The notes below the pieces were generated by a model. The model was given only the letters and a program-made list of their open reading frames with translations. It did no database searches and was not told where the DNA came from. Shown here in pieces: positions 17,398 to 60,906 of a DNA stretch of 61,339 bases. The translations under genes and the position numbers were made by a program. The first letter of the stretch is position 1; the number at the start of each line of letters is the position of its first letter. The DNA comes from Alphaproteobacteria bacterium (GTDB lineage Bacteria > Pseudomonadota > Alphaproteobacteria > Micavibrionales > CSBR16-224). The stretch lies in the NCBI GenBank assembly GCA_021775895.1, contig JAJFGX010000071.1, positions 1 through 61,339 on the forward strand. Direction: 5' to 3'.

Positions 17398-18105
17398 CTA
17401 TGCTTCATTTGTAGAAATAAGCCGTCCATCTTTATCAGCAATGCGTACTTCGTCACGGGGAGTGAGAGCATTACTGGGCCAACGAGCCTCCAGTAAACGA
17501 TCTTTTTTTAAGCGTGCTATAGAAACACTATTAGATTGATTGCCGCCAATAATTTGATAACATGTATCATCTTCAGCCCAATAAAAGCCTACATGACCTT
17601 GCCAGCCATCGGGTTCTCCACGCCAAAAAACCATAATTGACCCTAGTTGTGGTATGTCACACTCTTCACCGAATTTACGCCAATTTCTAGCACCAAGAGG
17701 ATTAGTTGGTAATGGTTCTTCTGATAATTGAGATCCAATACAATGAGCAGTAAATAACCCACACCACGGAGTTTCATCATCAGAATAATCAATACGAAGA
17801 GCTTTACCCCAGCCAATAATAGCCTCATTCGATCCGGCACCCGGATCTTCTTGAGTGCCAATAAGTTGATATGCTTCAGCAAGCCAAGGCATATATAGTG
17901 GTACTGCCTTATCTGTATGTGGTACATCTTTAGCAAATAAAGCTGACAAAGTTATAGGGCCAACAATACCATCTATTACAAGACTATTATCTTTTTGGAA
18001 TTCTTTAATAGCAGCAATAGTTTTACGCCCCATAATGTTGTCAACGGGGCCTGGATTATAACCTTTTTCTTTTAAAGCAAGCTGGATATCTTCAACAGAT
18101 GCCAT
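17398..18105 (-). CDS. Giant-operon gene 7: leaderless peptidoglycan-binding domain + NlpC/P60-superfamily (TIGR02594-like) cell-wall hydrolase
   Basis: The N-terminal PG_binding_1 pattern is 'LKEKGYNPGPVDNIMGRKTIAAIKEFQKDNSLVIDGIVGPITLSAL'. The C-terminal domain has the candidate nucleophile 'TPWCGLF' (Cys115), 'GHVGFY' (His171) and 'IIGGNQSNSV'. AGGAGG lies 8 nt before the ATG. There is no signal peptide. Confidence 0.85.
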   Translation of the reverse strand: MASVEDIQLALKEKGYNPGPVDNIMGRKTIAAIKEFQKDNSLVIDGIVGPITLSALFAKDVPHTDKAVPLYMPWLAEAYQLIGTQEDPGAGSNEAIIGWGKALRIDYSDDETPWCGLFTAHCIGSQLSEEPLPTNPLGARNWRKFGEECDIPQLGSIMVFWRGEPDGWQGHVGFYWAEDDTCYQIIGGNQSNSVSIARLKKDRLLEARWPSNALTPRDEVRIADKDGRLISTNEA

Positions 18106-18119
18106 ATTTTCCTCCTATA

Positions 18120-21100
18120 TTAAAATAAGCTTCCTGTGCGGGATACTATAAGTTTGTCTTGTGGGTTATCAATATTATGCTGTTTTATAAGAGTATTCAT
18201 CTCCGCAAAACCTACATTCTTCTTTTTTGCTAAAGGAGTTTTTGTTGCAGTTAATGTTGCACTCCTGACAGCGTCATAACTTGGTTTTTTTACAGAGAAT
18301 GGTGATTTAGATGTGGTATCTATTCTTGTTACTTGTAGTAGTTTTCCAACGTTTATAGAGGATAAAATCTGGGGTGTTCTTTTGGTTAGACGCTTTAAGT
18401 TAAGCTCCTTATCAATATATATCTCCTCAAAATCAACAGTTAATTCTGCCTGTAGCCCCTGTTTTGTAGTGTTTTGTGTGATAGAAACACCGCTTTCCAT
18501 CTCTTCAAAAGATGGAGCAGTTATTTTCTCATTATTTGTCATGTTAAAGAAGTTAGCAGAGGCAAACCATTCTGTGATGTAATCATCATTTTTGACATTT
18601 ATTTCTGTATCTCCTGTTTTCAGCTTGGAAATTGATATTTTTTTATTACCATCAATTTTTGCACCGCCAAATGTTTCTAATGTTGTATTTAGAGGAGCAA
18701 TTCTTTGTGATACAGTTAAACTACCTCCGGCATAATAACGTATATCTTCATCTGTTTTCTGTTCACGGAAATTTATAAAACGTGCACAATTATCATCTTC
18801 TGAAATTGCCCAGTTATCTTTTTCTGTGAAAGCAGCAGTGATAAGTTCAGTAACGTTATAATGCTCTGCAACATTTTCTTTTTTATTGCCTGCGGTAATA
18901 GACAGATTTATTTTCTTTTTTATTTTTAGAATCTCAAATGTAGCCTTACCATAGATTTCCCATGGTGCTGGCCCTATAATATCTGCCGTAACATCAACTC
19001 CCATTAATGTTACACTTCCCGCTCTGACTGAAACTCCAAATCCTGTATGGAATTGGAAACCAAATGGTACATATTGAATTAAGGCGTCCATCTCCAAATA
19101 ACCCTCAGCAGTAAAACCTGAGAATTTTGCCCAAACATCTACACGCCCGCCAAATTGCAATGTATTAGAGGTAAAAGCAAGATAGCAAGATACATCTACA
19201 CTGGCATTCTTACCAACTGGAAGAGATGCTTTCATACGTCTTAATTGGGGGAATTCTGCTGGAGGCTTGAACTTTGGATTAAAACCTCCAACTGATAAAA
19301 GCATTGTTGGGTTGCTAATTAGACTGGCACGCATAGCCATATCACCAGATAGTGTCAGGATATGCATGATATGGGAGTCACGCAATACAGCATCAAGAGC
19401 AAATGTTCCTGCCGATAAATCAGCTATGCCGAATACATCCATATGTAGCTCAACAATTGTAACTTCAGGGGTTGGCAACATGGCAGCAACTTGTCCGATA
19501 AGAGCGATACGAACAGGGTCTGGCAGTTCAACCATTACACCAAGATCAACTGTGATAAGTGAAGGTGTTCCCCAACCAATTTTCATCATTGCGCCAAAAA
19601 TAAATTGCCCCTGTACTGATGGGAAAACGGCAGAAATATCACTAATAATTTTTGGTGCATTCGCAACAGGGTCTTCGGGAAACATGATTGAATCCATAGC
19701 ACCGGTTAGTAAACGTTCACGAAGGGCATCATCATCTAAAGCTCGATGTAAACCGACTAGCCCGCCAACACCATTTAATGTGAAACCAAAGCCTAGTTGT
19801 ATTGGTGGAAATTCACTGAATATACTAAGGAATAGTGACCAACCATCTGATCCATCTGGCATTTTAGTGTTTAAAATACCAATAGCTGACAGACCTAAAT
19901 TAACAAATCCAACCTCAGCTATACCAGCATATTGAAATTTACTCTCATCATGTGATAAATATCCGCCACCTTTGACAATACCGCCGTCAATAGCAAGCCC
20001 CAATCCTATTGGTGGTTTTAAGCCAAGTTTTAAGTCCAAATTACCAAGCAATCCGCTTTTTGTACTATCTTCCACAGGCACTAATTCTGCCCGCATACCA
20101 ATATCTTCAACGACAAAACTTATAACAGATACATCTAGTCCACCTGTTACTGCAATTTCTAATATAGCCCCATCTGTTCCTGCTCCAGCCATAATGCGGA
20201 TATGAGATAGGGTAATTGGCCCAAGGTCTTTGTTAACTGGGATAATCACCTCAAAACCTGCACCACCTTCAAATTGCAAACCATTTTCTAGCGACCATAT
20301 CAGCCCTGCATCGGCTGTTACAGCCAGTTCATTATCTCCCAAAATTTCACGGATAAAACTATCACCGTCTTTAGGGGTTAAATAGAGTTTTAACCCTTGT
20401 TCTGCACCGCCGCCAGTACGTATGCCAAATGATAAATCAGGAGAGCCATCTGCTATAGATGCTAAACCAATTTCACTGGACAGGCTTGATAGTTCCAGTC
20501 TAATTCCATCTGGGTTACCGAATAATATCCAAGGCTCTTCAGGCTCCCCAACAAATTTTAGAGTAATATCATCATCCGGTTTTGTTGTTTCAAAAGTAAT
20601 AGCATCATGCTGAATATTAATGCCAACCGCTTGACGAAGAATATCAATTGTATCGGAATAATCCATTGTCCAGTCTTTGGATAGCGCAATTTCTTCTGGT
20701 GCCTCTCCAGCAAGTCTGGTATTTAAAAATAATCCATATTCCTTATCTTCAGTTGCATGAGGAACAGGGGCAAGAGACATTATTGGTTTAAAATTACGAA
20801 TTGATTGTGCAAATTTATCTGGTAATAAGTTTGTATTAATTTCTTTTATATCGCTACTACCACCAGTTTCTGAGTAAAAATCATTTGCAATAACCTCGGA
20901 TAAAGAGCTGTACTCTGTGTTTAGAGAAAGGCTATTCAGTAGACGCCATAGCTTGAACATAAACATATTCTGATCAAACTCTTGTCCCCACTTATAGTAA
21001 TCAACAACAGTTTTATGAGGGTTTTTTAAAAACGCACTAAACTGGTTCCAGTCAAATTCACGTAAAGGGTCTTCTTGGTCTTCACGAGGTGTTTCTAAAA

Positions 21101-21545
21101 CCGCACCAACGAAATGTAAAGACTCATAAATGAATTCATAATTAATATATAGCCAGCGCATTAATAGGTAATTTGGTAGTTTTAGTGCAAATTCTTTCCA
21201 CCAGTCTTTCTCATTCATTGGGGAGGGAAGGGCAGTTATATTACTTCCAGAAATACTTTGTAGGCTGCTAATAATGCCGTGCAAGTCTTCTGCGAGTAAG
21301 ATAACCTGCTCGGTAGCTCTACCTGCTGTAATGTTTTCATTTTCTGTATCTTCATAGACCTCTATGAGGCTCTCAATAATATCTTTTATATCAAGAACAG
21401 ATTCTATCACTTGATATTGGTCATCATTTAAGGTGATTTTCCACCCAACATCTTTAACAAAAGTTATAAAATGCTCTTTGCTTTCCGTTGCAACAACGAG
21501 AGGAGAGAAATATTCAATAATAATGCGAAGAATAGGTATCTGCAT
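18120..21545 (-). CDS. Giant-operon gene 6: 1141-aa protein, helical N-terminus plus a long Gly-rich beta region (DUF6603-like from memory)
   Basis: AGGAG lies 7 nt before the ATG. Residues ~340-885 carry 'GGYLSHDESKFQYAGIAEVGF', 'IQLGFGFTLNGVGGLVGLHRALD', 'SVGGFNPKFKPPAEFPQLRRM' and 'FTSNTLQFGG'. No catalytic or NTP-binding motif was seen. Confidence 0.9.
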   Translation of the reverse strand: MQIPILRIIIEYFSPLVVATESKEHFITFVKDVGWKITLNDDQYQVIESVLDIKDIIESLIEVYEDTENENITAGRATEQVILLAEDLHGIISSLQSISGSNITALPSPMNEKDWWKEFALKLPNYLLMRWLYINYEFIYESLHFVGAVLETPREDQEDPLREFDWNQFSAFLKNPHKTVVDYYKWGQEFDQNMFMFKLWRLLNSLSLNTEYSSLSEVIANDFYSETGGSSDIKEINTNLLPDKFAQSIRNFKPIMSLAPVPHATEDKEYGLFLNTRLAGEAPEEIALSKDWTMDYSDTIDILRQAVGINIQHDAITFETTKPDDDITLKFVGEPEEPWILFGNPDGIRLELSSLSSEIGLASIADGSPDLSFGIRTGGGAEQGLKLYLTPKDGDSFIREILGDNELAVTADAGLIWSLENGLQFEGGAGFEVIIPVNKDLGPITLSHIRIMAGAGTDGAILEIAVTGGLDVSVISFVVEDIGMRAELVPVEDSTKSGLLGNLDLKLGLKPPIGLGLAIDGGIVKGGGYLSHDESKFQYAGIAEVGFVNLGLSAIGILNTKMPDGSDGWSLFLSIFSEFPPIQLGFGFTLNGVGGLVGLHRALDDDALRERLLTGAMDSIMFPEDPVANAPKIISDISAVFPSVQGQFIFGAMMKIGWGTPSLITVDLGVMVELPDPVRIALIGQVAAMLPTPEVTIVELHMDVFGIADLSAGTFALDAVLRDSHIMHILTLSGDMAMRASLISNPTMLLSVGGFNPKFKPPAEFPQLRRMKASLPVGKNASVDVSCYLAFTSNTLQFGGRVDVWAKFSGFTAEGYLEMDALIQYVPFGFQFHTGFGVSVRAGSVTLMGVDVTADIIGPAPWEIYGKATFEILKIKKKINLSITAGNKKENVAEHYNVTELITAAFTEKDNWAISEDDNCARFINFREQKTDEDIRYYAGGSLTVSQRIAPLNTTLETFGGAKIDGNKKISISKLKTGDTEINVKNDDYITEWFASANFFNMTNNEKITAPSFEEMESGVSITQNTTKQGLQAELTVDFEEIYIDKELNLKRLTKRTPQILSSINVGKLLQVTRIDTTSKSPFSVKKPSYDAVRSATLTATKTPLAKKKNVGFAEMNTLIKQHNIDNPQDKLIVSRTGSLF

Positions 21546-21557
21546 AAATTTGCTCCT

Positions 21558-23726
21558 TTAGTTTGTTCCACCTAGAAATGTTTCTGCATCACGGGCAGAA
21601 TGACCAAGAAAATCAATATCTACCTGCAAGGGGTTTTCTGGGTTGCAGTTAAATCTATTTCTGAAATGCATACGTATTTTTTGTTCTACAGCTTTTAAAT
21701 TATCTGCGGCATCATCTGCTTTCAAAATATCCAGAATTTCATAAAACTCATCACCAAAATCTAGTTGATCTGCAGGAAGGTGCAAATCGAATTTATCTGT
21801 AAGTGCTTTTATAATTTCATCGGGTGTTTTAGCGGCTTCATCTGCATTTTGCATGAGCTCACGGATTAGATCATTTTCAAATTCAGCAACTGCACGGTTT
21901 AGTTTTTCCAAAGCTCCCATTGATGTACCATCACCTATCAGATAAACTTTCTTGAAAGCAGCCTGAATATAACTTAAAACTTCTGGATCAGTTGCATATA
22001 GAAGCTCATAATTACTTAAATCATCAATTTTACTTCTAATATTTGCTGGAACAAAACCACTACTTTCCAGAACTTTCCGTATTTCTCTTATTTTTAGTTC
22101 AGGAACAGTCGTTATGACACGATGCCAGTCAACTTTGAATACAATAACATTGGAAAAACCTTCTATGATCCCTAACGGAAGTGCATCTGGGCCTTCCAAA
22201 AATCCAATTAAAAGTCTGGTTACATCACTTCTAAGCTGCCGAATAATTTCTCCATTAGCAATTGTTACATCATCTAACTCTTTGAAACGAAGGAGGTCAT
22301 TAAAGCGGCCTACAGATTTCATTTGCACTAGTACAGCAACCTCTCCAGCCCCTTCCATAAGGGTTGTTAAAGTCTCGCCAACTAACTGAGTCTGTCGACG
22401 CACTCTTTGAGCTAATATAATCAGATCCGCAGCACAGCGATTGCCAATACGAGATTGCAGTAATATCTTTTCTGCTGGAAAATGGATAAGAGCTACAAGC
22501 GCAGTACGTACTTCAAATAGGTAGCCATGCTCCATATTTTGGCGTCTAAACATTTTTTCAAATATATCTGCACTACCTTCCAGAAAGAAATAATCCAGCA
22601 TTACTTTATGAATATCTATGTCTTGTCTGGCACTGACTTTCAAAATAGTATCAGCCTCTTTATAAAGTAGTAAGATACAAGAAAGAATTTCTTTTGTAGC
22701 CATCAAACTATCTAATCTTCGTGCCCCAAATAATTTCGACACATGACTTGTATCTAGATCAGCTAAATTCCATCTGGGAGAATAGTACCTAAATAACCAC
22801 TGTATATTATAGGTCATAAGATAAGAGAAATAATCAGTGATTTCTCCATTGATATTTACTCCCTGTCCTTCAAGAAATTCTTTAAACCCTTTATAGTATT
22901 CAGTGTGAGGGGTATCAGTTGGAATACCAGGAAAACGCCCCGGAGCTTTTAATTTTGTAAGCAGACCAGGTGGCAAGTCTAAAATAGTTTCTGCACCAAT
23001 AGTTTCAAGAAATGTTAGTGCTTCCATAATTTTTGTACGTAGTGAGCTTGCATCAAGAACAGTTTCCACGACATCATCTAGAGCATCAGCTGCAGGTTCT
23101 GTATGGCGTATAAGTTTATCTATACCAAACCAATTATTCCGTTTAAGTGGGCGTCTGACCATTTCTATATAGGCGGTGTAATCATCTCCTAGTAAAATCT
23201 TAAGTACATGTGCTGTTTGTGTTAGCTCATTACGTTTAACCATCAGGAAGAGCTGAGGAGAATCTCTAAGTTGTTCGAATGTAGGTGGGTTAGCCGCACT
23301 ATAGGGGGCTGGAAAATCCAGATTATGCTGCCGAATAAAATCCTCTATACTTCCTCCACTATTTCCGGGCATTGCACGCCATCTTTCATACATGGTATCC
23401 AGTGTTTTTTTGAAACGGGTATGTGAACATTTTAATAAGGGAATTTTAAAGCTCTGCTTTGTGAAATCATATATTAAGCTAAAAGGAACTCTAAATACTC
23501 CAAGATTACCTTGCGTGTGTTCAGCTAAAAGGGATAGTGCTCTGGCATAAACAAGAGCACGCCTGCTCGAAAGATCTCCTCCAGATAGTTTTGTAAGTGC
23601 ATCTTTAATCTCATCTTTACTTTGACCAAGAATATCCTTGCCTATTTCTTCTACAACTTCATCAGTTGCGTCTAAACCCTCAAAACCAATGATACGCCTT
23701 AAAGCGGAAAGAACTGTATTTGCCAT
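21558..23726 (-). CDS. Giant-operon gene 5: 722-aa hypothetical protein, apparently mostly helical
   Basis: Its ATG shares one base with the upstream stop (TAATG). No recognisable motif, signal peptide or TM segment. Confidence 0.9.
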   Translation of the reverse strand: MANTVLSALRRIIGFEGLDATDEVVEEIGKDILGQSKDEIKDALTKLSGGDLSSRRALVYARALSLLAEHTQGNLGVFRVPFSLIYDFTKQSFKIPLLKCSHTRFKKTLDTMYERWRAMPGNSGGSIEDFIRQHNLDFPAPYSAANPPTFEQLRDSPQLFLMVKRNELTQTAHVLKILLGDDYTAYIEMVRRPLKRNNWFGIDKLIRHTEPAADALDDVVETVLDASSLRTKIMEALTFLETIGAETILDLPPGLLTKLKAPGRFPGIPTDTPHTEYYKGFKEFLEGQGVNINGEITDYFSYLMTYNIQWLFRYYSPRWNLADLDTSHVSKLFGARRLDSLMATKEILSCILLLYKEADTILKVSARQDIDIHKVMLDYFFLEGSADIFEKMFRRQNMEHGYLFEVRTALVALIHFPAEKILLQSRIGNRCAADLIILAQRVRRQTQLVGETLTTLMEGAGEVAVLVQMKSVGRFNDLLRFKELDDVTIANGEIIRQLRSDVTRLLIGFLEGPDALPLGIIEGFSNVIVFKVDWHRVITTVPELKIREIRKVLESSGFVPANIRSKIDDLSNYELLYATDPEVLSYIQAAFKKVYLIGDGTSMGALEKLNRAVAEFENDLIRELMQNADEAAKTPDEIIKALTDKFDLHLPADQLDFGDEFYEILDILKADDAADNLKAVEQKIRMHFRNRFNCNPENPLQVDIDFLGHSARDAETFLGGTN

Positions 23727-26533
23727 TATAAATTCCCCCCATGTTTTACAAGATTTTTAACAAATCCTGAGCTTGCGAATGGAAGAAGTGCTGCTACCCC
23801 CATAATGGCTAAATCAACTTCTGTGACAGGCTCTCCCCATTTATCTTTACCAGTGACGATTGAAATAGCAAAATCGGCAATATCAACAGCATCGCCAACA
23901 AATGGAATAAAGCCAATTGCAAGATCAATATATAAACGAAATAAAATCACATCAAGAGTTACTTCCTGTATGCCATTATAGTTTATATTTGTTGTAAATA
24001 CGGCCGTTCCTCTAAGCTTCGCAAGCTCTAACGGTTCAGATATATCTGTATCAGTTAAGCTATAGGAAATATCTTCAATGGCATTAATCTGTTCTGCGTT
24101 ATAGATATTTAAGCTCTCAATGGCACTGCCTTCAAAAACTTCCGAAGGATTATCACCAGTTAAAACACGTTCTTTTTTATCATAAAAATGCTTTTCCATG
24201 TCATGTTCCAGATAATAACCCTCTGGTGGAATAGAATTAATATGATCAGTTTCACCATTAGGAGCCTTGGTTTCATAGAAAAAACTACGTGCCCATGACT
24301 TGGCACGATTAATATTTGTTCCATAAGGTTGTTGGTGGGCATATTGATAAATACCACGATAATTTTCCCTGACATTAACAGTGACACCGGGTGTAAAATG
24401 CACAATAAGTTTATACATTTCAAAACCTTTGTCAGGATAGTTTAGATGAAATACTTCTCCTAAAGTAAAGTGACCACGTTCTTCAACATTTGCCAGTTCT
24501 TGTGCTCGCAGGGTTTCAGCAGCGACCCAATTATCATGAATTTTATCGATATAATATCCAAATCTTTGATTGGAAGAATGTGGATCAACTAAAATTTCAA
24601 CTTCCAAAAAATATGGTTCATCTTGTGAGCCAACAACTTTTGGAACAACAGGGCAGGAAATTGTTATTCCAACTATGGAGTCATTAATATATTTTGGCTT
24701 AATATAGAAAGCAGGAAATTTATCTGATGTTGGTGGTGGCTGGTCTTCAGATATGCCAAAACTTTCTTTCATATTATCTGGAACATTTTTAATTGCCATC
24801 TCCATATCTACGGGCATGTAATGCATTTGTTCTTCTATTACTATATTTTCATTAGAGCTAATTTCAGGAATATCATTATCATATGGGATATATTTTTGCC
24901 CATTTGGGTGAAGCAAAACATTAGATGCGGAATATTGTGGTTGGTGACAAGTATGTATATCAATTGGTTCATACCATTCTGATACATAGGCTGCATCTTG
25001 TACACGGTATATTAATACCTGACATGTTTGAGGTAAGCCATTTAGCCCTGATATAGAAACACCCGGTGCCGCAACAATCATCAGTGTTGCTAATCTATCC
25101 TCGGTAGGCTCTCTATACTCCCATGTAAAACAGTCTTTTGGAGTAAAGTAATTATCTGTATCATGATTATATAAGTACTGCTCTTGCTCAACTGAAATTT
25201 TAAAATCGTATAGATAGAAATCTATGCCTATTACATCATCTTCTGTCTCAAAATGAGGGCCTGACATATATTTATAATAAAAGTAAAATGGAGCCCTTGT
25301 ATTTTCTAAAGACATGATCTCAAATTCTGGCAATGGAACTTCAATAACGCCAAAATTTACAAGCGTTAAAATTGTTTCAAAATAAGATAATTGATCCATG
25401 TGCCATAAAATATAGTCTGGCATTTCCGCAGAGCTACTATCAATCATCTCTTTGATTGAAGAGATAAATTTTGCTCGTTTTTCTTTAGGGGTGAAAATAC
25501 GAATAAACCAGTTTGAATCTTCCGCCATAAAAAGGGTAGAGCGATCAAGGGTTTGTTTTAATACTGAATATACATCACTGCTGTAATCCATTATATATTC
25601 TGAAATATCTATACCAAATGATAAACCAGGTATAAGGCTATCTGTGGCTATGCTGGCTAGAGGATTATCAAAAAAATCAAAAAAACTGTCTAATGCACCA
25701 AAGCGGTCAAATTCAAGAGACATACCTGAAAAGAAACGATGCCATATTTTTCCAGCTTCTTCCCTGAACAGAGCGCCATCATTGTCATTTGCAAGGTCAA
25801 AACTCCAGTAAGATGTATTTAGAATCCATAATAGACCAGATGGTAGAGTGCTATTAGGAGAGATGACCTCCGCTTCATAAAATTCTGATATTTGCTCCAG
25901 CTTTCTATTTTCTTCGTTGTCATCTTCTAAATTTTCTGTTCCAAATTCTGCAATATAACCAAGAGCAATGCGCATATTGAGCTTAAAGAACATTAGATAA
26001 TATAAAATATCATTTATTTTAGATAGAAAATCATTAAAAGTTATTGTGTCATTATTATCATAAGAAGAAACGATGTTTAATTTAGAGCTTTCTTCATTGT
26101 ATGAGATAGAAAGGTCTGCAAGCTGTATATCATATTGAGTATAAACAGATGCGAATAATGCAAGCTCAGTCGGTGAATTAAACTCTAATGGAATTGCACA
26201 TCCTGGAATTGCGGTAGCTTTGATGGAGAAGCTGCCAGACTCTGTTGTATATGCTTCTGTTGTAAGTTCCATTGTGTCATGGTTTACTACTATATATTTT
26301 CTTAAATCCCCTATTTCATATAGTAAACGGGTTTCTTCCAAGCGATATCCCATTAATTGAAGTAACAAATATGTACTCATAAAAATGTCTTCATAATGTA
26401 TTGCAAAGCTATCTAAATTAAAATTTGGGATATCTTGAGTGATTTCATCCATGTCATAGATAAAACCTTGACCACGATTAAATTTATTAATTTTAAAGAA
26501 TGGTAGATTAAGTGGAGTAGTATCTATTGTCAT
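23726..26533 (-). CDS. Giant-operon gene 4: 935-aa acidic, aromatic-rich protein ending in a PT-TG-like (pre-toxin TG) hydrophobic hairpin
   Basis: ATGA overlap with gene 3. The C-terminus is 'IGFIPFVGDAVDIADFAISIVTGKDKWGEPVTEVDLAIMGVAALLPFASSGFVKNLVKHGGNL'. Confidence 0.9.
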   Translation of the reverse strand: MTIDTTPLNLPFFKINKFNRGQGFIYDMDEITQDIPNFNLDSFAIHYEDIFMSTYLLLQLMGYRLEETRLLYEIGDLRKYIVVNHDTMELTTEAYTTESGSFSIKATAIPGCAIPLEFNSPTELALFASVYTQYDIQLADLSISYNEESSKLNIVSSYDNNDTITFNDFLSKINDILYYLMFFKLNMRIALGYIAEFGTENLEDDNEENRKLEQISEFYEAEVISPNSTLPSGLLWILNTSYWSFDLANDNDGALFREEAGKIWHRFFSGMSLEFDRFGALDSFFDFFDNPLASIATDSLIPGLSFGIDISEYIMDYSSDVYSVLKQTLDRSTLFMAEDSNWFIRIFTPKEKRAKFISSIKEMIDSSSAEMPDYILWHMDQLSYFETILTLVNFGVIEVPLPEFEIMSLENTRAPFYFYYKYMSGPHFETEDDVIGIDFYLYDFKISVEQEQYLYNHDTDNYFTPKDCFTWEYREPTEDRLATLMIVAAPGVSISGLNGLPQTCQVLIYRVQDAAYVSEWYEPIDIHTCHQPQYSASNVLLHPNGQKYIPYDNDIPEISSNENIVIEEQMHYMPVDMEMAIKNVPDNMKESFGISEDQPPPTSDKFPAFYIKPKYINDSIVGITISCPVVPKVVGSQDEPYFLEVEILVDPHSSNQRFGYYIDKIHDNWVAAETLRAQELANVEERGHFTLGEVFHLNYPDKGFEMYKLIVHFTPGVTVNVRENYRGIYQYAHQQPYGTNINRAKSWARSFFYETKAPNGETDHINSIPPEGYYLEHDMEKHFYDKKERVLTGDNPSEVFEGSAIESLNIYNAEQINAIEDISYSLTDTDISEPLELAKLRGTAVFTTNINYNGIQEVTLDVILFRLYIDLAIGFIPFVGDAVDIADFAISIVTGKDKWGEPVTEVDLAIMGVAALLPFASSGFVKNLVKHGGNL

Positions 26534-28266
26534 GATGCTACCCTCTTGTTTATTTCAACCATGTCTACAGTTCTATCTGAAGATCTATTACCGGAAGAAG
26601 GGCGTTTTTTACGACCATTCCATACTATAAGTTTACCGCTTGCATCTCGTGCTGCTTGATAGCTACGAGTGATTTCAATTGCACCTCTTGGTATTTCTTC
26701 TTCATATATAAAAAATGGTTTATCTGGTTCTAGAATTTTACCTTGTCCACCAGCCAGTGTTTCTTTTAACTCACCTAGTAAATCCCATTCACGCATTCTG
26801 GAACGCCTTAAAGTATTGGTTGTTTTGTTATCTTTTATTTCTGGAGAGAATGGCACCCAATAAGGTGGTGTAATAGAAAGAAGACGGTAAACCCATGCAT
26901 CTTTTTGCTCTTCAGTTGCATCATCAGGAAGAGGGTCACTATTACCGAGGTAAGTTACAATCTGGTCACGATAACGCATATATTCGGCATGGCGTGACAT
27001 TGTATGACCTGACTGTGTTTCTAGCTTTTCCTCAATTGCCCAAGCCATATTAGCCATTTCATCACGTGTCATTATGACTTTTTCAACTGGTTTATCTTCT
27101 TGTCCCCCCAGTAAAGTACGTGGGCTATATAGCCATGGTGCAAAACCTTTTTCAGCAGAAGGGTCACCTTTTAGCTCGAAAAAACGCCAATCACGGTTTT
27201 TACCATCATTTACAGCTGTGGGTTTGATACTATGCTTCTCACCAAAACAATCATAAACTGTTACAGTTTCAACACGTGTTATACTTCCCGAAGGCACAGG
27301 AAGTGGTAGCATATACCAGTCATTACTATAGATGGTAGCAAACTCTGTTAAAATCATTTGTGCTAAATCAGTAGAGTTAGCTGCAAGACCGCCAAAGAAA
27401 ACTTTACCATCTTCAAAATCCCAGAATCGTTCGGCAGGCATGCCAGCATATCTAACTGGCGTTGGAATTAAATAATTAGGCTGTGTTTTTTTCAGTTTCT
27501 GATCCAGTCCTGTCGATTTTTTTGTCCAGAGATTAAAATGATACCAATCGAGCTGACCACCATTATAAGCAGTCGATTGCAAGACAGGCTGTGTTTGCCC
27601 CTGCTTTTCTGTTTGTATAGCAAAACTGTATTCTTGTCGTGGAGACTGCCAATGTTGTTGATTTTTAGATAAGAAACGGTCTTGATAATAAGAGTGCCAA
27701 AGATTGAGCTTTTTTTCTAATGTATTTTCAGCAATACCTGATGCGGATAATAATGACAAAACAGAAGCAAGACGCATGTTAGACATTTTTGCACCATCAA
27801 AACTTTTTCTAATGAGTCTATCAAGAAAAGCACTTTTACCTATTTTATTATCATTTAGTTTTAAGGGCAATTTTGTTTGTAAAATAGGTAGTAATTTTCG
27901 TTGTTGCCCTGAACTGAACTGTCGCAGAAACTGAATACCTGCTTCAGCAGAAATGCGTGGGGAAGCAATACCATTTATAACATCTTCCGCTTCTATTTCA
28001 GCTTCCAGCAATGCGGTATTGTCAATTTTAAGGGGTTTTCCAGTTTTTCCTGCTTCATCTACTGGTATAATATTTTGAACATTTAACGAAGATGAAACTA
28101 GCTCTGTTTTAATGGGGGAGGCGGCATCCTCTCCTTGAAAACCGCCAAATTGCCATTGGCGACACAACGTCCATAAGGGATCAGCTATACGGGCTTGCAA
28201 ACCTTTACGGGTGTTACGAGTGCGATGTCTTCCATTGATGCGTGTCCAATCATCTCGCTGTGTCAT
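26530..28266 (-). CDS. Giant-operon gene 3: 578-aa hypothetical protein
   Basis: It starts 1 nt after the gene-2 stop, with AGGGGGG upstream. Conspicuous blocks are 'DPLWTLCRQWQFGGFQGEDAASP' and 'GMPAERFWDFEDGKVFFGG..TEFATIYSNDWYMLPL'. Confidence 0.9.
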   Translation of the reverse strand: MTQRDDWTRINGRHRTRNTRKGLQARIADPLWTLCRQWQFGGFQGEDAASPIKTELVSSSLNVQNIIPVDEAGKTGKPLKIDNTALLEAEIEAEDVINGIASPRISAEAGIQFLRQFSSGQQRKLLPILQTKLPLKLNDNKIGKSAFLDRLIRKSFDGAKMSNMRLASVLSLLSASGIAENTLEKKLNLWHSYYQDRFLSKNQQHWQSPRQEYSFAIQTEKQGQTQPVLQSTAYNGGQLDWYHFNLWTKKSTGLDQKLKKTQPNYLIPTPVRYAGMPAERFWDFEDGKVFFGGLAANSTDLAQMILTEFATIYSNDWYMLPLPVPSGSITRVETVTVYDCFGEKHSIKPTAVNDGKNRDWRFFELKGDPSAEKGFAPWLYSPRTLLGGQEDKPVEKVIMTRDEMANMAWAIEEKLETQSGHTMSRHAEYMRYRDQIVTYLGNSDPLPDDATEEQKDAWVYRLLSITPPYWVPFSPEIKDNKTTNTLRRSRMREWDLLGELKETLAGGQGKILEPDKPFFIYEEEIPRGAIEITRSYQAARDASGKLIVWNGRKKRPSSGNRSSDRTVDMVEINKRVAS

Positions 28267-28267
28267 A

Positions 28268-31200
28268 TCATGCCCCCCTAGCTAAAGTTAGATTTTTTGC
28301 TGCAAAAACAGCAGGCAGATGCTGGTCAAGCTCTGTAATATTTTCATCATCCAATCCACGCATTCTTGACCAATCCAGACTATGTTTCAAAGTGTCGAGC
28401 ATTAGATCAAAATTCCATGATTTTCTTTCTGGTGCCATTGCTAGCAACATAACTTGAGGAGGCTCAGAATTAGGTGCATCAAAATGCAAGGCAATGCCTG
28501 TATCCTCTTCATTGGAGGGTAGGCGTTCGACGACTTCATCAACCATTATGCCCGTCATCTTTCCAGTAGCGAAATCTGCGGGAGTTACATGTGGAGGCAT
28601 AAGAACAAGAACAGATTGCCTATGTCCTTGCCCTTCTATTTGCTTATCTTGCGGTAGAGACATGGCAGTCCATTTTTCTCCATCAATATCAGGAAACTGA
28701 GCTACGGCAAAATTTCCTCCGCCATCGACAAAGCCAGCACTATCTTGTGTAAGCAATGCTTCAGAAAAACATTTTAAATGAGGTCTGACATATTGCATTT
28801 TCTCCAGCCAAACGTAGCTGTCAGTTTCACTGTTTTCAAAACGCATGTTTGTGCGTTTAATGGAATTGCTCCATGTTGTGGCCTGCATCTGTGATAATTC
28901 AATAAGACTAAAACTAGGGGAAGCATGCCCAATAATGATATTAGCAATTTTGTGCAATGTTTCATTATCCAGAGCATTAAAATCGTTATCTTCCCCAACC
29001 AAGTTATCAATTTTCTCTAAACGTTTGGTGAGTTTATCTGCTATAGATCTGATTTCTGATATGGCAGTCTGGATAACAGTTTTTTCATCTTGATGGTAAA
29101 ATGTAGGAATATTTTCTGTTAGCAAAAAGCGCATAGAAGTTAAGAATATTTCCTCTATATTTTGAATAGCAGCACTCAGCCCGCCAAAAGATAAAGCACC
29201 ATCTTGTTCATGTATATTTGCTATGAACTCTGTTCGTTTGTATAAATTACGTAAAGTGGTAACGCCTGATTTCAGATGTGTAATAAACTCGTCTGGAAGA
29301 CTGGTTGTTCCGATATTTTCTTCTGTGCTGTCGAACATAAAATCTTCTATTTTTATAGCGCGGGTTTTATCCAGTACATCACGCCATCCCATTAATAGCA
29401 ATAAGCTGTCTTGTGTATTATCTGTGTCCTCTATATATGGCTCTGCTTCTGCTGGAATATTATCTGGTTTATTGGCATTAAGGAATAGTTTGATCCATTC
29501 TGTAATAGCGCTGTTATGAGTTTCCACATCAGTTGGAAGCATAGGCAATACATCCAATACTCCAAGAGAAAAACGTGTATCTTGTTTGCTTATATCTGCT
29601 AATGAAATAGTTTCTTGCTTAATATAAGTATCGTCAGGTAGGCGATAAGCTACATCAAATTTGATATTCTTTATATCGCCGATAATGGAAGATAACATAT
29701 GTTCTGTATCGGTAAATAATTTAGTACGCAAGCTATTATCTTCTTCCGCCCATACAGTATTAGAAGCTTTTTCAGCGGGCATGAGCATCATAACCTTATG
29801 AGTTAATGTCATACCTTTTCTTTGTGTTTTTAGTATATTCAGCTCAGGTGGTGCTATATCGCCCTGTCCAACAGCAGTAAGTGTAGCCCCAGCCCGTGCG
29901 GTATTACCTTGAACTAGCGAGTGAACGCTATCTGCAATAGCAGCATCAGCCAGTGCATCTCGCATGTCAGCCAATTTATTGATAAATGGTGTAACTTCTT
30001 TTAAATCTAACCCATCGCTATATTCTGATTTGGAAAGATGTTTTAAGAAATTGGTTTGTTGCGTATCCATTGCCCATAAATCATATAGAGCTAAACCGTC
30101 TACAACGGGTGATTTTGGATCACTCTTTTCTTGGGTAAAGGATAAAACAGCCTCACGCACCGGGTAAACCCAATGGTCTTTTTTTCCTTCATGTAATACT
30201 CTTTCAAAAGCATAGCCAAGAACATCTCCTAAATCCTGCCCTTGCCGTACAGCATCAAACATCCAACTTGCTGTGTACATTCTTTCTGAGCTAAGATCGA
30301 CAGCAAAAGGAGTATTTGTTCCTTCTTCACGATAAGCCTGATATCCAGATCGTAAAACAGCAGCAGTTTTAGCATGGTTCAAAGATGGTGTATGGATAAA
30401 TCCTTCACTAATTTCATTTCCTGTGACTGTTTTACTACGTGGCTTTAAATTCTCTACCCAGCCAAAAGCTCCTAATTGTAATCCTGCTTCTTTTTTATTA
30501 CGTAAATCTTGCAGGCGTTTGCTGTGCATTGAGCCATACCATGCATCAAGTCGCCACCCAAACAATCCCAGTGTTTGCTGCATTAATAATTCCAGTTGAT
30601 CTTCGGGTAAAGTCTCCAGAATAGACAAGGCTGTAACGAGTTCATTTAATCTTTTAGCTCTTAAATTTTTAAATTTTGGTTGATTAGGCGAAATGGCTTC
30701 TGTGTTTAACCGAGTTCTAGGTGTATCATTGCTTACTCTTCCTATGGCTGTATAAACTAATTGATAAAGCAGAGGTTTGCCTTGACCTTGTAGTGGTGAT
30801 GTTCCAGCATCATTTCGGCTATTGAGCAGTGATTTGGTATATTGTTTTAGATAGGAAAGGTATTGCGCTGGTAGAATAGTTGTTCCATCATCCTTTTTAA
30901 TAGTAATCAGACTATTACTTGATAAACGGTCTTCTTCACTTTTATAACGACTGTAAACTATTTGCGGGTCATCAATTTCTTTGCGTAAGTTGGTATCAAT
31001 CATATCTGGAATAAGGCTATTAATTTCTTTAGCACGCATGTAATGGTCTTCTGTCACATCTATAAGCATATCCAGTATATCTAAACCTTGTGTGATTGTT
31101 TTCTTTTCACCACGATTAGTAACACTTTTGCTTTCTGCCTCAATTTGTGCTTTTACCAATATATATGTAGATTTCTCAATGCTGGAGGAAGAGTAGGTTT

Positions 31201-32842
31201 TTGTATACAGATCATCAAGATCAGCAGTGGTATATTTTTGTAAAGTCTCGGTTAAGACACTGTATTTCTTATCAAACAATGCCATTTTTATAAGTTCATA
31301 CCAAAATAAAATAAGGCTTCTATTATTACTTAATTGCTTGCCGGAAAATTTAACCGGATTGGGTTGCTGGCTCAACAAATCAAGTAATCTATCGCTGATC
31401 GCACCACTACCTTGTGCAAATTGTGTAAGCTGTACAGCAGATGATTTATTTTCCACCCAGTTTTCAGATAGTTTTTGCAATATTTCGAAGAGCTTTTTCT
31501 CATATTTATCTTTTGGCTGCATATGGTCGGCAGCTTGAATAGGGAGAATACCGTAAGGTGTTTCACCTATGCGAATGGTTGGGAGAGAGGCTCCACCTTT
31601 CACATATGTTTGTGTCCAGTCTTGTACATAGCTTATTTCTTCGCTTGATAATAAAGATTTTTTCTCTGTTGATAAAAGTGACTGTAAATATTCGCCTAGT
31701 GTCACTCCCCATAAAGCTGTATTCATCGCTTGCATGGCTTTTTGTTCAAATCCTTCGCGGTATTCGAAAGATTTAAGGATTGAGTTTTGTTGTAGCCCTA
31801 GTGCTTGTTCCAGAATGTTATAATTTTTATCTTTTTCAGATATGGAGGTATCATTGTTAGGAATCATTGCTCCGGAACAGGTTAAATCTGTATCAGTTTC
31901 TGGAGTGGTTGTTTTATTGGTATCTTTCTCGGTAAAGCTACGATGCCATACAGCTTCCAAATCTTCAGCAAAGGCTGACCACCCAGTATTAACTTCCTCT
32001 GTATTATTGGTTGGCATGCCTTGTGGTACGAAACCTGCACCTTCAGTATAAAAATGATTATTTAATGTATCAGCAAAGTATTTAGCCGCTTTTTTTGGTG
32101 TAAGATTTGCATCTTTATCTTTTATTTTTATACCTAGAACATAAAGCTTATCAAATCCATTTTGCATGTCATCGGTTAAACTAACCTCTACCCCCATGCC
32201 TTTATTTTTGGCTTCATCAAAGTCAACCATCCATTTAATGGCAGGATCAACAGATAAATCAGTAGGAATTTCTTCAGCGTTTTGTAGGTTAGGACTAAAA
32301 CATAAATCAGGGTCAATAGCTGAACTGACAGTTTCCAATATTCGTTTACTGCCTTTATACCCGACAACAAACCAGTAATCAGGCAACAGCTTTGATGTCA
32401 TTACGGTATAGTCATTATCTTCACGTAACTGTGAGGAGGGAATATTTTTATTTTCTGTCTTTTGGGCAACATAGGCGGCACGAGCTGTACCCATTATAGA
32501 AACAAGCCAGCCCCAAGCCTGTTTTCTATTTTCTTCATAGTTATCGCTTCCTTCAAATTTCGCCAGATCTTTCCAGAATTTTTTACCTGATTTATATTCA
32601 TCTTTAGTAAGTTTGGTTTCATGCTCATTCATAAAAATACGGTCTGGAAAAACACGAATTTTTAAAGAGGTTGGTTTTTTAGTAGGTAAAAAACGAGTTT
32701 CAATTCGCACTGGCAGCATTAAAACAGGAATGCCCTTTTTTAAATTCTCAAAATCTTTTTTACGAGAATCTATAGTTGTTACAACTCGAATAGGGTCAAC
32801 ACGTCGTATTGGTGTGTCTATTATGTCACGGCGGATAGGCAT
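28268..32842 (-). CDS. Giant-operon gene 2: 1524-aa hypothetical protein
   Basis: It starts 6 nt after the gene-1 stop, and the SD GAAGGA is embedded in the end of gene 1. Blocks are 'LPVRIETRF..LKIRVFPDRIFMNEHE' (N-terminus) and 'GIALHFDAPNSEPPQVMLLAMAP' (C-terminus). No Walker A or HExxH. Confidence 0.9.
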   Translation of the reverse strand: MPIRRDIIDTPIRRVDPIRVVTTIDSRKKDFENLKKGIPVLMLPVRIETRFLPTKKPTSLKIRVFPDRIFMNEHETKLTKDEYKSGKKFWKDLAKFEGSDNYEENRKQAWGWLVSIMGTARAAYVAQKTENKNIPSSQLREDNDYTVMTSKLLPDYWFVVGYKGSKRILETVSSAIDPDLCFSPNLQNAEEIPTDLSVDPAIKWMVDFDEAKNKGMGVEVSLTDDMQNGFDKLYVLGIKIKDKDANLTPKKAAKYFADTLNNHFYTEGAGFVPQGMPTNNTEEVNTGWSAFAEDLEAVWHRSFTEKDTNKTTTPETDTDLTCSGAMIPNNDTSISEKDKNYNILEQALGLQQNSILKSFEYREGFEQKAMQAMNTALWGVTLGEYLQSLLSTEKKSLLSSEEISYVQDWTQTYVKGGASLPTIRIGETPYGILPIQAADHMQPKDKYEKKLFEILQKLSENWVENKSSAVQLTQFAQGSGAISDRLLDLLSQQPNPVKFSGKQLSNNRSLILFWYELIKMALFDKKYSVLTETLQKYTTADLDDLYTKTYSSSSIEKSTYILVKAQIEAESKSVTNRGEKKTITQGLDILDMLIDVTEDHYMRAKEINSLIPDMIDTNLRKEIDDPQIVYSRYKSEEDRLSSNSLITIKKDDGTTILPAQYLSYLKQYTKSLLNSRNDAGTSPLQGQGKPLLYQLVYTAIGRVSNDTPRTRLNTEAISPNQPKFKNLRAKRLNELVTALSILETLPEDQLELLMQQTLGLFGWRLDAWYGSMHSKRLQDLRNKKEAGLQLGAFGWVENLKPRSKTVTGNEISEGFIHTPSLNHAKTAAVLRSGYQAYREEGTNTPFAVDLSSERMYTASWMFDAVRQGQDLGDVLGYAFERVLHEGKKDHWVYPVREAVLSFTQEKSDPKSPVVDGLALYDLWAMDTQQTNFLKHLSKSEYSDGLDLKEVTPFINKLADMRDALADAAIADSVHSLVQGNTARAGATLTAVGQGDIAPPELNILKTQRKGMTLTHKVMMLMPAEKASNTVWAEEDNSLRTKLFTDTEHMLSSIIGDIKNIKFDVAYRLPDDTYIKQETISLADISKQDTRFSLGVLDVLPMLPTDVETHNSAITEWIKLFLNANKPDNIPAEAEPYIEDTDNTQDSLLLLMGWRDVLDKTRAIKIEDFMFDSTEENIGTTSLPDEFITHLKSGVTTLRNLYKRTEFIANIHEQDGALSFGGLSAAIQNIEEIFLTSMRFLLTENIPTFYHQDEKTVIQTAISEIRSIADKLTKRLEKIDNLVGEDNDFNALDNETLHKIANIIIGHASPSFSLIELSQMQATTWSNSIKRTNMRFENSETDSYVWLEKMQYVRPHLKCFSEALLTQDSAGFVDGGGNFAVAQFPDIDGEKWTAMSLPQDKQIEGQGHRQSVLVLMPPHVTPADFATGKMTGIMVDEVVERLPSNEEDTGIALHFDAPNSEPPQVMLLAMAPERKSWNFDLMLDTLKHSLDWSRMRGLDDENITELDQHLPAVFAAKNLTLARGA

Positions 32843-32848
32843 GTTTTT

Positions 32849-35923: not shown

Positions 35924-36415
35924 TTATTTCCTATTTTCAGAAGCTTGCAAGACTAATTGGCATGTTTTATGGCTAGGAAGAGACTTTAACGCTTCTTTGC
36001 AGAAAAGGGCGGGCGAATAGCCAGCTTCATTCTTAACGGTTAGGCTTGCACCTAAGTTGATTAAAATGCGAGCTGCTTCTATGCGGTCTGCATCTATAGC
36101 GTGATGTAACGGGGTTCTTCCATCAGCATCTCTATGGTCTAAATTAACGCCAGCCTGAAATAGAAGCTCCAAAACATTAGGGAATTTTTTATTTTCTATA
36201 GCGGCATGAGCAAGGTTTTGCTCTCGACCGTATAGGTAAGATGATATTTCTTTGAATCTATTCTCGTCTTTTAAGATTGAGAATTCTTCTGGACTACCTG
36301 TTGCAACAATTCTAGGTAAAAAAAGATTATCGTTCGTACTAGCATCACACCCTGTACTCATTAGCAGGAATATTACTATACACAGTTGCTGAATCCTAGC
36401 TCCTATATGTTGCAT
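35924..36415 (-). CDS. Exported (possibly lipidated) ankyrin-repeat protein
   Basis: AAGGAG lies 8 nt before the ATG. The hydrophobic leader is 'LCIVIFLLMSTGCDAS'. ANK repeats include 'DGRTPLHHAIDADRIEAARILINLGASLTVKNEAGYSPALF'. Confidence 0.8.
   Translation of the reverse strand: MQHIGARIQQLCIVIFLLMSTGCDASTNDNLFLPRIVATGSPEEFSILKDENRFKEISSYLYGREQNLAHAAIENKKFPNVLELLFQAGVNLDHRDADGRTPLHHAIDADRIEAARILINLGASLTVKNEAGYSPALFCKEALKSLPSHKTCQLVLQASENRK

Positions 36416-60829: not shown

Positions 60830-60906
<77 letters not shown>

What the first reader, a model, noticed from the sequence alone, without database searches (positions are those of the whole stretch)
23729..23935. Gene 4 ends in a pre-toxin-TG-like motif with no toxin domain after it
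Seen: the last 69 aa are 'LYIDLAIGFIPFVGDAVDIADFAISIVTGKDKWGEPVTEVDLAIMGVAALLPFASSGFVKNLVKHGGNL'. Established: the PT-TG domain of polymorphic toxin systems has the pattern IP.vG...D....vTGkD..tGE.l, followed by a hydrophobic stretch, and it normally sits immediately N-terminal to a variable toxin module. Here the protein stops ~15 aa later. Inference, three options: the motif is used as a membrane-inserting or docking helical hairpin; the toxin module has been lost; or a cargo is supplied in trans.
Basis: partly seen in the sequence, partly recalled or inferred. Interest (0 to 1): 0.75.

Follow-up and report, generated by a model that had tools for sequence, protein, structure and literature searches.

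The report
Connector module between two split genes
The toxin-style "pre-toxin" motif at the end of gene 4 is a real, conserved small helical domain. Its "missing" downstream part is simply the next gene, which in many other bacteria is fused to gene 4 as one protein, inside a widespread six-gene system of unknown function.

Summary
Gene 4 (23726-26533, minus strand, 935 aa) ends in the quoted 69 residues.

The last ~78 aa form a conserved domain. It drives nearly all of the 212 hits found among 1.84 billion representative proteins. With an alignment, AlphaFold2 folds it confidently (pLDDT 89) into four short helices around an invariant G-x-D-K-W-G loop.

It is only a sub-threshold PT-TG match: 18.4 bits against a cut-off of 23.5, E 0.002. 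It matches DUF4112 equally weakly.

The toxin has not been lost. The module that belongs after the motif is gene 5, whose ATG overlaps gene 4's stop (TAATG). In 66-67 of 76 relatives that continue more than 150 aa past the motif, the continuation is a gene-5 homologue, so genes 4 and 5 are one polypeptide. Fused and split forms occupy the same place directly upstream of the DUF6603 gene. The continuation is constant, not polymorphic, and no immunity gene follows.

A minority of relatives (9 of 149) are cargo proteins of contractile injection systems: eCIS_core, then the motif, then variable ends, one of them a colicin-type DNase.

Best reading: the motif is a carrier-payload connector, with the payload made in trans. 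This is a new variant of a known kind. The surrounding six-gene system is the more novel object.

The parts
23729..23962 (-). C-terminal ~78-aa module of gene 4 (residues 858-935). Four helices: 3-17, 22-37, 48-62 and 65-75 of the module. A beta-bridged loop 'TGKDKWGEPV' sits between helices 2 and 3. PT-TG/DUF4112-like.
23726..26533 (-). Gene 4 (g4), 935 aa. It has no signal peptide and no family match above threshold in any library. The ~459-530 region is the best-conserved part of the core.
23724..23728 (-). TAATG: gene 4's stop (TAA, 23728-23726) overlaps gene 5's start (ATG, 23726-23724) by one base.
   Evidence: The same tight junctions (TGATG, ATGA, GTGA, or 1-3 nt gaps) occur in 10 other loci.
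23735..23740 (-). GGGGGG run 8 nt upstream of gene 5's ATG. It is a likely ribosome-binding site for coupled translation. A -1 slip here would also read straight into gene 5 (untested).
   Evidence: Read directly.
21558..23726 (-). Gene 5 (g5), 722 aa: the module that follows the motif in cis in fused relatives.
18120..21545 (-). Gene 6 (g6), 1141 aa, DUF6603 (PF20248, E 7.5e-124). It always lies directly downstream of g4-g5 or of their fusion.
26530..28266 (-). Gene 3 (g3), 578 aa. It is the best-conserved member of the set and was used to trace the system in >=589 genome stretches.
28268..32842 (-). Gene 2 (g2), 1524 aa, core member of the set.
32849..35794 (-). Gene 1 (g1), 981 aa from a GTG start (a later ATG is possible), core member of the set.
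17398..18105 (-). Gene 7, 235 aa: a PG_binding_1 + TIGR02594 peptidoglycan hydrolase-like protein at the end of the cluster. It is an accessory and is not conserved with the set.

Best explanation
The last ~78 residues of gene 4 are an independently folding four-helix module. A conserved first hairpin carries G-[FM]-I-P-x-V-G-D-x-x-D, and an invariant G-x-D-K/R-W-G loop follows. It belongs to the same loose superfamily as Pfam PT-TG and DUF4112. Its job is to join an N-terminal carrier (the g4 core) to a C-terminal partner module.

In this genome the partner is not missing. It is gene 5, made as a separate chain whose start codon overlaps gene 4's stop, so the two are translated in a coupled way. 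The inference is that they then stay associated through or next to this module. In many other bacteria the same two parts are one polypeptide with the module at the joint.

The g4-g5 pair is a standing component of a six-gene set (g4, g5, g6 = DUF6603, g1, g2, g3) that is widespread and uncharacterised.

Shown: the domain and its conservation, the fusion/fission pattern, the synteny, and the constancy of the partner.

Inferred: physical docking of g5 on the module, and any carrier/payload role.
For: The domain is real. There are 212 hits, almost all through the tail, with invariant or near-invariant residues. The AF2 model has pLDDT 89.4 and pTM 0.66.

Relation to known families. PT-TG scores E 0.002 for the window tail, and 19 of 62 members reach E<=0.01 in the same register. 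Profile-profile comparison with DUF4112 gives 96.4% probability, E 1.2e-9, over the first hairpin.

Partner in cis. Of 149 representative relatives, 76 continue more than 150 aa past the module. 70 of those continuations form one BLAST cluster. 66-67 match a g5 profile end to end. 10 of the 16 with 60-150 aa after the module carry the start of g5.

Synteny. Fused proteins P0133 and P0147 and the L087 ORF sit directly upstream of DUF6603, g1 and g2. Split g4+g5 pairs occupy the same place in L088, L093 and L095 (and the duplicate partial contig L094, where only the pair is held) and in L001-L010. In all 12 metagenome loci with enough DNA, the module is followed by g5-like sequence, in cis or in the next ORF.

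Coupling. The window has the TAATG overlap. Ten other loci have overlaps or gaps of <=3 nt.

Carrier/payload logic elsewhere. The same module, with part of the g4 core, sits inside eCIS_core proteins of bona fide contractile injection loci. It is followed by g5-like or unrelated ends, one a Col-Pyo DNase.
Against: No direct evidence shows that g4 and g5 bind, or that the module is the interface. PT-TG and DUF4112 matches for the window sequence are below the curated thresholds. g5 shows no enzymatic or toxin hallmark, so 'payload' may be the wrong word and both may be structural. In L097 the split lies ~130 aa inside g5, so the break point is not strictly tied to the module. The module is also the most hydrophobic stretch of g1-g5, which fits a membrane role equally well.
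Confidence: 0.6

Rival explanations
1. Membrane hairpin. The module inserts into a membrane as a DUF4112-like helical hairpin. It anchors g4 (and the fused g4-g5) to the producer's inner membrane, or inserts into a target membrane.
For: It is the only segment of g1-g5 with 19-residue Kyte-Doolittle hydropathy >=1.6: residues 858-893 and 906-926, maximum 1.91. 39 of 62 tails hit DUF4112, a family of small hydrophobic proteins, and two relatives pass its gathering score. hhalign gives 96% probability.
Against: Four acidic residues (D13, D24, D27, E30) are conserved inside the first 'hydrophobic' hairpin. The predicted helices are only 11-16 residues long. The family-mean hydropathy peaks at 1.49, below 1.6. 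The DUF4112 similarity covers only 25 columns. The model folds confidently as a compact monomer.
Confidence: 0.2
2. Release site. The module is a recognition or cleavage element that lets the C-terminal part be cut off, as recently hypothesised for PT-TG. The stop codon in split forms is the genetic equivalent of that cut.
For: PMC13483458 (Discussion) proposes that PT-TG is a substrate for cleavage that releases the toxin. In this family, gene fission recurs a few residues after the module. eCIS_core relatives carry variable ends after it.
Against: No protease is encoded next to it in the window. No conserved scissile motif was identified after the module. The module is well ordered in the model rather than a flexible linker. 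The idea is untested even for canonical PT-TG.
Confidence: 0.1
3. Decayed polymorphic toxin. Gene 4 once carried a toxin after the motif and lost it through a nonsense mutation or deletion.
For: The only support is the bare observation that the ORF stops right after a pre-toxin-like motif.
Against: The same ORF end, with an overlapping or near-adjacent g5 start, is seen in six distinct syntenic loci among L001-L010 and in the split metagenome loci among L088-L097. 57 of 149 representative relatives end within 60 aa of the module. All conserved positions are intact in the window. No toxin remnant or immunity gene follows; g6 starts 12 nt after g5.
Confidence: 0.03

Closest known systems
Pre-toxin TG domain (PT-TG, Pfam PF14449) of polymorphic toxin systems
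   Same: Similar length. The pattern is hydrophobic helix, IP-x-x-G-D, TG, then a conserved Gly/Asp/(Arg) loop, then a hydrophobic helix. It sits immediately N-terminal to a separate C-terminal module. The conserved stretch is predicted as a loop, as reported for PT-TG (PMC13483458). 'PT-TG singleton' proteins without a recognisable toxin are already known to be common.
   Different: It is below the Pfam threshold: 17.9-18.4 bits for the window tail (17.2 for the family consensus) against 23.5. It folds with high confidence here, whereas PT-TG models were reported at pLDDT <70. In the orthologous family the following module is constant (g5), not polymorphic. There is no immunity gene and no LXG, WXG, VgrG or other known trafficking domain on g4.
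DUF4112 (Pfam PF13430), small hydrophobic proteins with two IP-x-x-G-D units
   Same: The first hairpin ('D-x-x-I-G-x-I-P-x-V-G-D-x-x-D') aligns with the second unit of DUF4112 (hhalign 96.4%, E 1.2e-9). Two relatives pass the DUF4112 gathering score.
   Different: Only 25 columns are shared. DUF4112 lacks the TG/DKWG loop and helices 3-4. DUF4112 proteins are ~115-140 aa stand-alone proteins, not tails of 700-1600-aa proteins.
eCIS_core (PF13699, formerly DUF4157) cargo proteins of extracellular contractile injection systems
   Same: 9 of 149 relatives are eCIS_core proteins that contain the same module. Several also contain part of the g4 core, followed by g5-like or other ends. Two lie in arrays of eCIS_core genes: one beside sheath, tube, baseplate, AAA ATPase and spike genes (L117), the other beside the AAA ATPase only (L111). 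One ends in a colicin/pyocin DNase.
   Different: The window's g4 has no eCIS_core domain, and the window holds no sheath, tube or baseplate genes. Here the neighbours are DUF6603 and three other large proteins of unknown fold.
Fusion/fission ('Rosetta stone') gene pairs with translational coupling
   Same: Two adjacent ORFs with overlapping stop and start correspond to a single ORF in other lineages. The usual reading is that the two products act as one complex.
   Different: This is a general evolutionary pattern, not a family. It says that g4 and g5 work together, not what they do.

Membership tests
PT-TG (PF14449) | Match to the family HMM at or above the gathering score (23.5 bits) | tested here: not met
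   The window tail scores 18.4 bits, E 0.0021, profile 6-55 of 68. The whole protein gives no hit. The family consensus scores 17.2 bits. 19 of 62 relatives reach E<=0.01, best 4.6e-6.
PT-TG (PF14449) | Conserved TG and adjacent conserved Gly/Asp/Arg loop | tested here: met
   The window has T37-G38-K-D40-K-W42-G43-E-P-V. G38, D40, W42 and G43 are >=90% conserved or invariant, and Arg is the family majority after G43 (E in the window). The stretch is predicted as a loop, as described in PMC13483458.
PT-TG (PF14449) | Lies immediately N-terminal to a toxin or C-terminal module in the same polypeptide | tested here: not met
   The window ORF stops at the end of the domain. The module that follows in cis in relatives is encoded by the next gene.
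Polymorphic toxin system | C-terminal modules vary between otherwise related proteins | tested here: not met
   For the orthologous g4 family, 70 of 76 continuations form one cluster and 66-67 are g5-like. Variation is seen mainly in eCIS_core paralogues, plus a few proteins without that domain.
Polymorphic toxin system | Cognate immunity gene directly downstream of the toxin end | tested here: not met
   g6 (DUF6603, 1141 aa) starts 12 nt after g5, with no small ORF between them. The same holds in the syntenic loci.
Polymorphic toxin system | Recognisable toxin domain | tested here: not met
   g4 and g5 have no Pfam, NCBIfam, PADLOC or PHROG family above threshold. The g5 alignment has no catalytic-looking motif. 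Toxicity itself was not testable.
DUF4112 (PF13430) | Match at or above the gathering score (23.3 bits) over the two-unit profile | tested here: not met
   The window scores 16.4-19.9 bits, covering at most profile positions 57-90 of 105 (67-90 for the tail alone). hhalign is significant, but only over 25 columns.
eCIS cargo (eCIS_core / DUF4157 proteins) | N-terminal eCIS_core domain and location in a contractile injection locus | tested here: not met
   Window g4 has no eCIS_core and the window has no sheath, tube or baseplate families. The feature is met by the relatives whose loci were read, P0172 (beside an AAA ATPase) and P0209 (full contractile locus); P0226 has the domain but its contig is too short to show a locus.
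DUF6603 six-gene set (unnamed) | g4 (with the tail) and g5 adjacent to DUF6603, g1, g2 and g3 | tested here: met
   The window order is g1-g2-g3-g4-g5-g6. The same six genes are found in L001-L010, and in the order g4-g5-g6-g1-g2 in L087, L088, L093, L095, L112 and L114.

The most novel reading that the evidence does not exclude
g4-g5 is the payload or membrane-engaging arm of an undescribed multi-protein envelope machine. This machine is the DUF6603 set: g6, g1, g2 and g3, five or six proteins of 600-1800 aa with no known fold, in hundreds of species from more than ten phyla. The PT-TG-like module is the universal connector by which a g4-type carrier holds its C-terminal module. The same cassette has been borrowed by contractile injection systems through fusion to eCIS_core. 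If so, the window holds a new kind of protein-delivery or envelope-spanning system, and PT-TG-type modules get their first structural and functional definition.
Probability: 0.2. Interest if true: 0.85.

Novelty: new variant of a known kind. Interest (0 to 1): 0.55.

Why it matters
PT-TG is one of the commonest 'pre-toxin' modules, yet it has no known structure or role. This family offers three things. It is a version that AlphaFold2 folds confidently. It is a natural split/fused series that marks the module as a joint between a carrier and a C-terminal partner. It also links contractile-injection cargo proteins to a widespread, completely uncharacterised six-gene set containing DUF6603. That makes the connector, release-site and membrane-hairpin ideas directly testable with one pair of proteins. 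It also flags a large conserved system that no current database names.

Tried and rejected
- **Word-indexed homologue search with g4:** it found only g4 itself. The same search with the tail alignment gave only three marginal DUF4112 proteins, so that search was wasted. The exhaustive HMMER scan was what worked.
- **No matches elsewhere:** megablast of the operon and tblastn of the tail consensus against plasmids. PDB sequence searches with the tail profile, g4, g5, g6 and the g3 profile. Foldseek of the tail model against PDB, and of the g3 model against PDB and BFVD. PHROGs and PADLOC for g1-g6. No paper mentions DUF6603.
- **A misreading that was corrected:** in the 80 genome loci fetched around g3, g4 and g5 seemed absent outside one alphaproteobacterial clade. 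I briefly read them as a variable cargo slot. That was wrong. The usual gene order is g4-g5-g6-g1-g2-g3, so they lay beyond the 10-kb flank, as the tail-anchored loci showed.
- **Clustering caveat:** single-linkage BLAST clustering of the N-terminal parts (132 of 136 in one cluster) over-merges. A g4-core profile gives 118 of 136.
- **Technical failures:** the first metagenome scan with the 62-sequence tail alignment failed for lack of a conserved pattern and was repeated with 12 sequences.
- **Phage proteins:** the IMG/VR proteins with IP-x-V-G-D units have no Pfam family.
- **Rejected readings:** chance motif, lost toxin, and a canonical polymorphic toxin with an immunity gene.
Full report
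**1. The observation**

Translating the minus strand of 23726-23935 gives exactly the 69 residues quoted, followed by a stop. They end a 935-aa ORF at 23726-26533 on the minus strand.

Gene 4 is the fourth of seven co-directional, tightly packed genes:

| Gene | Coordinates | Length |
|---|---|---|
| g1 | 32849-35794 | 981 aa |
| g2 | 28268-32842 | 1524 aa |
| g3 | 26530-28266 | 578 aa |
| g4 | 23726-26533 | 935 aa |
| g5 | 21558-23726 | 722 aa |
| g6 | 18120-21545 | 1141 aa |
| g7 | 17398-18105 | 235 aa |

**2. Is it PT-TG?**

- Scanned as a whole protein, g4 has no PT-TG hit. It has only a sub-threshold DUF4112 hit.
- Scanned alone, the tail matches PF14449 with E 0.0021 and 18.4 bits (cut-off 23.5), profile positions 6-55 of 68. 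It matches DUF4112 at 16.4-19.9 bits (cut-off 23.3).
- Of 62 related tails, 19 reach E<=0.01 for PT-TG (best 4.6e-6). 39 reach it for DUF4112 (best 7.8e-5).
- The PT-TG register is the same in independent relatives.
- Two relatives pass the DUF4112 cut-off.
- Profile-profile comparison with three DUF4112 proteins gives 96.4% probability, E 1.2e-9, but over only 25 columns. That stretch is the first hairpin, D-x-x-I-G-x-I-P-x-V-G-D-x-x-D.

The tail is therefore best described as a sister of PT-TG that shares one unit with DUF4112. It is not a member of either family by the curated thresholds.

**3. It is a real domain**

- The exhaustive HMMER scan of 1.84 billion representatives with g4 found 212 proteins at E<=1e-3. 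Almost all matched through residues ~857-933.
- The 62-sequence alignment has invariant G23, D40, G43 and P61. D13, G17, P20, D24, D27, G38 and W42 are >=90% conserved. The window sequence keeps all of them.
- With that alignment, AlphaFold2 gives mean pLDDT 89.4 and pTM 0.66. The model has helices 3-17, 22-37, 48-62 and 65-75, and a beta-bridged loop at 38-47, which is the TG-x-DKWG-x-PV stretch.
- The domain ends about three residues before the stop.
- Foldseek finds nothing similar in the PDB.
- A 2026 survey of PT-TG reports that its conserved Gly/Asp/Arg stretch is predicted as a loop. It also reports that no structure exists, and that 'PT-TG singleton' proteins without recognisable toxins are among the commonest architectures (PMC13483458).

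**4. What follows the domain**

I located the tail in each of the 149 listed relatives:

| Residues after the tail | Number of relatives |
|---|---|
| <=60 aa | 57 |
| 60-150 aa | 16 |
| >150 aa | 76 |

- The long continuations are not diverse. 70 of 76 fall into one BLAST cluster.
- A profile of five g5 proteins already matches 36 of them collinearly.
- After three rounds, 66-67 of 76 match from the start to the end of the g5 core.
- 10 of the 16 intermediate cases carry the first ~70-150 residues of g5.
- 118 of 136 N-terminal parts match a g4-core profile.

In a large part of the family, g4 and g5 are therefore one protein, with the tail at the joint.

**5. Synteny confirms orthology**

- Gene calls on long contigs show fused proteins directly upstream of DUF6603, then g1, then g2. 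These are P0133 (1237 aa) and P0147 (1573 aa). The L087 ORF (~1318 aa) shows the same.
- Split pairs occupy the same position in L088, L093 and L095; the g4 end, g5 and the start of g6 are also seen on the short contig L089 (L094 duplicates L093 and L095).
- Split pairs also occur in the window-like arrangement g1-g2-g3-g4-g5-g6 in L001-L010.
- With the iterated profile, all 12 metagenome loci holding enough DNA show g5-like sequence right after the tail, in cis or in the next ORF.
- In the window, the g4 stop and the g5 start overlap (TAATG), with a G6 run 8 nt upstream.
- Ten other loci show TGATG, ATGA or GTGA overlaps, or gaps of 1-3 nt.
- One locus (L097) is split ~130 residues inside g5 instead.

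**6. What g5 is not**

- g5 has no family in Pfam, NCBIfam, PHROGs or PADLOC, and no PDB relative.
- In a 70-sequence alignment, only about seven columns are >=75% identical, and none forms a catalytic-looking motif.
- g6 starts 12 nt after g5, so there is no room for an immunity gene.

The orthologous family therefore fails the tests for a polymorphic toxin: a variable end, a toxin domain and an immunity gene.

**7. The module does occur in real cargo proteins**

- Nine of the 149 relatives carry an eCIS_core (PF13699, formerly DUF4157) domain N-terminal to the tail.
- P0226 has the architecture eCIS_core (245-321), tail (739-802), colicin/pyocin DNase (1074-1184, E 4.8e-35).
- P0209 lies in a complete contractile injection locus with sheath, gp19 tube, baseplate, Pvc16_N, AAA ATPase, spike and gp25. 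It sits in a row of three eCIS_core genes, one of which ends in Tox-HNH-HHH.
- P0172 sits in a similar row next to an eCIS_core gene with a weak Tox-REase-9 match.
- These tail-bearing eCIS_core proteins also contain part of the g4 core. In P0172 they also contain g5-like sequence.
- DUF4157 is treated in the literature as the eCIS trafficking marker of polymorphic toxins (bioRxiv 10.1101/2021.10.19.465003).

The g4-type cassette, with its connector, has therefore been recruited as injection cargo. In that setting the end after the module does vary.

**8. The surrounding system**

- g3 has 780 homologues in the word-indexed search.
- At least 589 stretches of species-representative genomes encode a g3 relative. 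Among the 80 loci kept, they come from Alpha-, Beta- and Gammaproteobacteria, Actinomycetota, Nitrospirota, Acidobacteriota, Chloroflexota, Bacteroidota, Myxococcota, Cyanobacteria, Verrucomicrobiota, Gemmatimonadota and others.
- g6-g1-g2-g3 is the commonest visible order.
- Only g6 has a family, DUF6603, and no paper in the library mentions it.
- A confident g3 model (pLDDT 83, pTM 0.80) has no fold match in PDB or BFVD.
- g3 is absent from 2.9 million viral contigs.
- None of g1-g5 has a hydrophobic segment apart from the g4 tail.
- Peptidoglycan-binding accessories recur beside the set. These are g7 here, PG_binding_1 in L006 and L022, and an OmpA domain in L017. This hints at an envelope-associated assembly, but that is inference only.

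**9. Mechanism**

Shown:
- The tail is a conserved, folded joint between g4 and g5.
- The two are fused or translationally coupled everywhere.
- The same joint precedes variable ends in injection cargo.

Inferred:
- The module holds or positions the C-terminal partner, so it is a connector (my best reading, 0.6).
- It could instead, or also, be a membrane hairpin (0.2). Hydropathy and the DUF4112 likeness favour this. The conserved acidic residues, the 11-16-residue helices and the sub-threshold family hydropathy count against it.
- It could be a release site, as hypothesised for PT-TG (0.1).
- Loss of a toxin is effectively excluded.

**10. Verdict**

This is a new variant of a known kind of module. 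Its main value is as an entry point to PT-TG function and to an unnamed, widespread six-gene system.

Noticed in passing
window 18120-35794 (minus strand), and loci L001-L086: A set of five or six very large genes (g1, g2, g3, g6 = DUF6603, plus g4 and g5) is conserved in >=589 genome stretches (80 loci read) across more than ten phyla. Only g6 has a family. A confident AF2 model of g3 has no fold match in PDB or BFVD. The set is absent from IMG/VR. It appears to be an undescribed system.
   Followed up: partly
window 17398-18105 (minus strand): A 235-aa PG_binding_1 + TIGR02594 protein lies at the end of the cluster. It is most similar to PHROG 1259, 'baseplate hub subunit and tail lysozyme' (E 8e-29), and has no N-terminal hydrophobic segment. 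Peptidoglycan-binding domains also flank the set in L006, L017 (OmpA) and L022.
   Followed up: partly
window 23735-23740 (minus strand): A G6 run lies 8 nt before gene 5's ATG. It is probably the ribosome-binding site. However, a -1 slip there would read ...KHGG-EFI-MANT... with no stop, which would produce a g4-g5 fusion like the natural fused homologues.
   Followed up: no
L103-L109 (IMG/VR viral contigs), e.g. L103:1116-2942: One phage protein family shares a near-identical first ~185 aa holding two IP-x-V-G-D units. It then continues into three unrelated C-terminal parts (stop-to-stop segments of 609, 768 and 527 aa) that diverge right after the second unit. This is a polymorphic pattern at the same kind of motif. 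There is no Pfam hit.
   Followed up: partly
L017:11628-14543, L022:11653-14361, L025:11665-18919, L052:11825-14464: In lineages where something other than g4-g5 lies between g3 and DUF6603, the slot holds different large proteins. These are an OmpA-domain protein, a PG_binding_1 protein, a PhoD-like phosphatase, and three paralogues, two of them with weak M64-peptidase similarity.
   Followed up: partly
L097:1-2597: In this metagenome contig the break between the two ORFs lies ~130 residues inside the g5 module rather than just after the tail. The fission point is therefore not fixed.
   Followed up: no
window 35924-36415 (minus strand): A 163-aa ankyrin-repeat protein lies immediately upstream of g1. 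The window is ~37% G+C, with ordinary housekeeping genes around it (MnmE, Dus, TldD/PmbA, carboxyl transferase, tRNA-Met at 60830-60906).
   Followed up: no
window 9109-12021 (+) and 55652-57262 (+): Two further long ORFs (970 aa and 536 aa) have no Pfam family at E<=0.001.
   Followed up: no
L001:465-1790: A group II intron reverse transcriptase (RVT_1 + GIIM) sits just upstream of g1 in the closest syntenic locus, on a 12-Mb contig of assembly GCA_977880245.1.
   Followed up: no
L112:434-877: A small ORF with a weak Prok-JAB (deubiquitinase-like metalloprotease) hit overlaps the start of a fused g4-g5 gene. It may be relevant to the cleavage idea.
   Followed up: no
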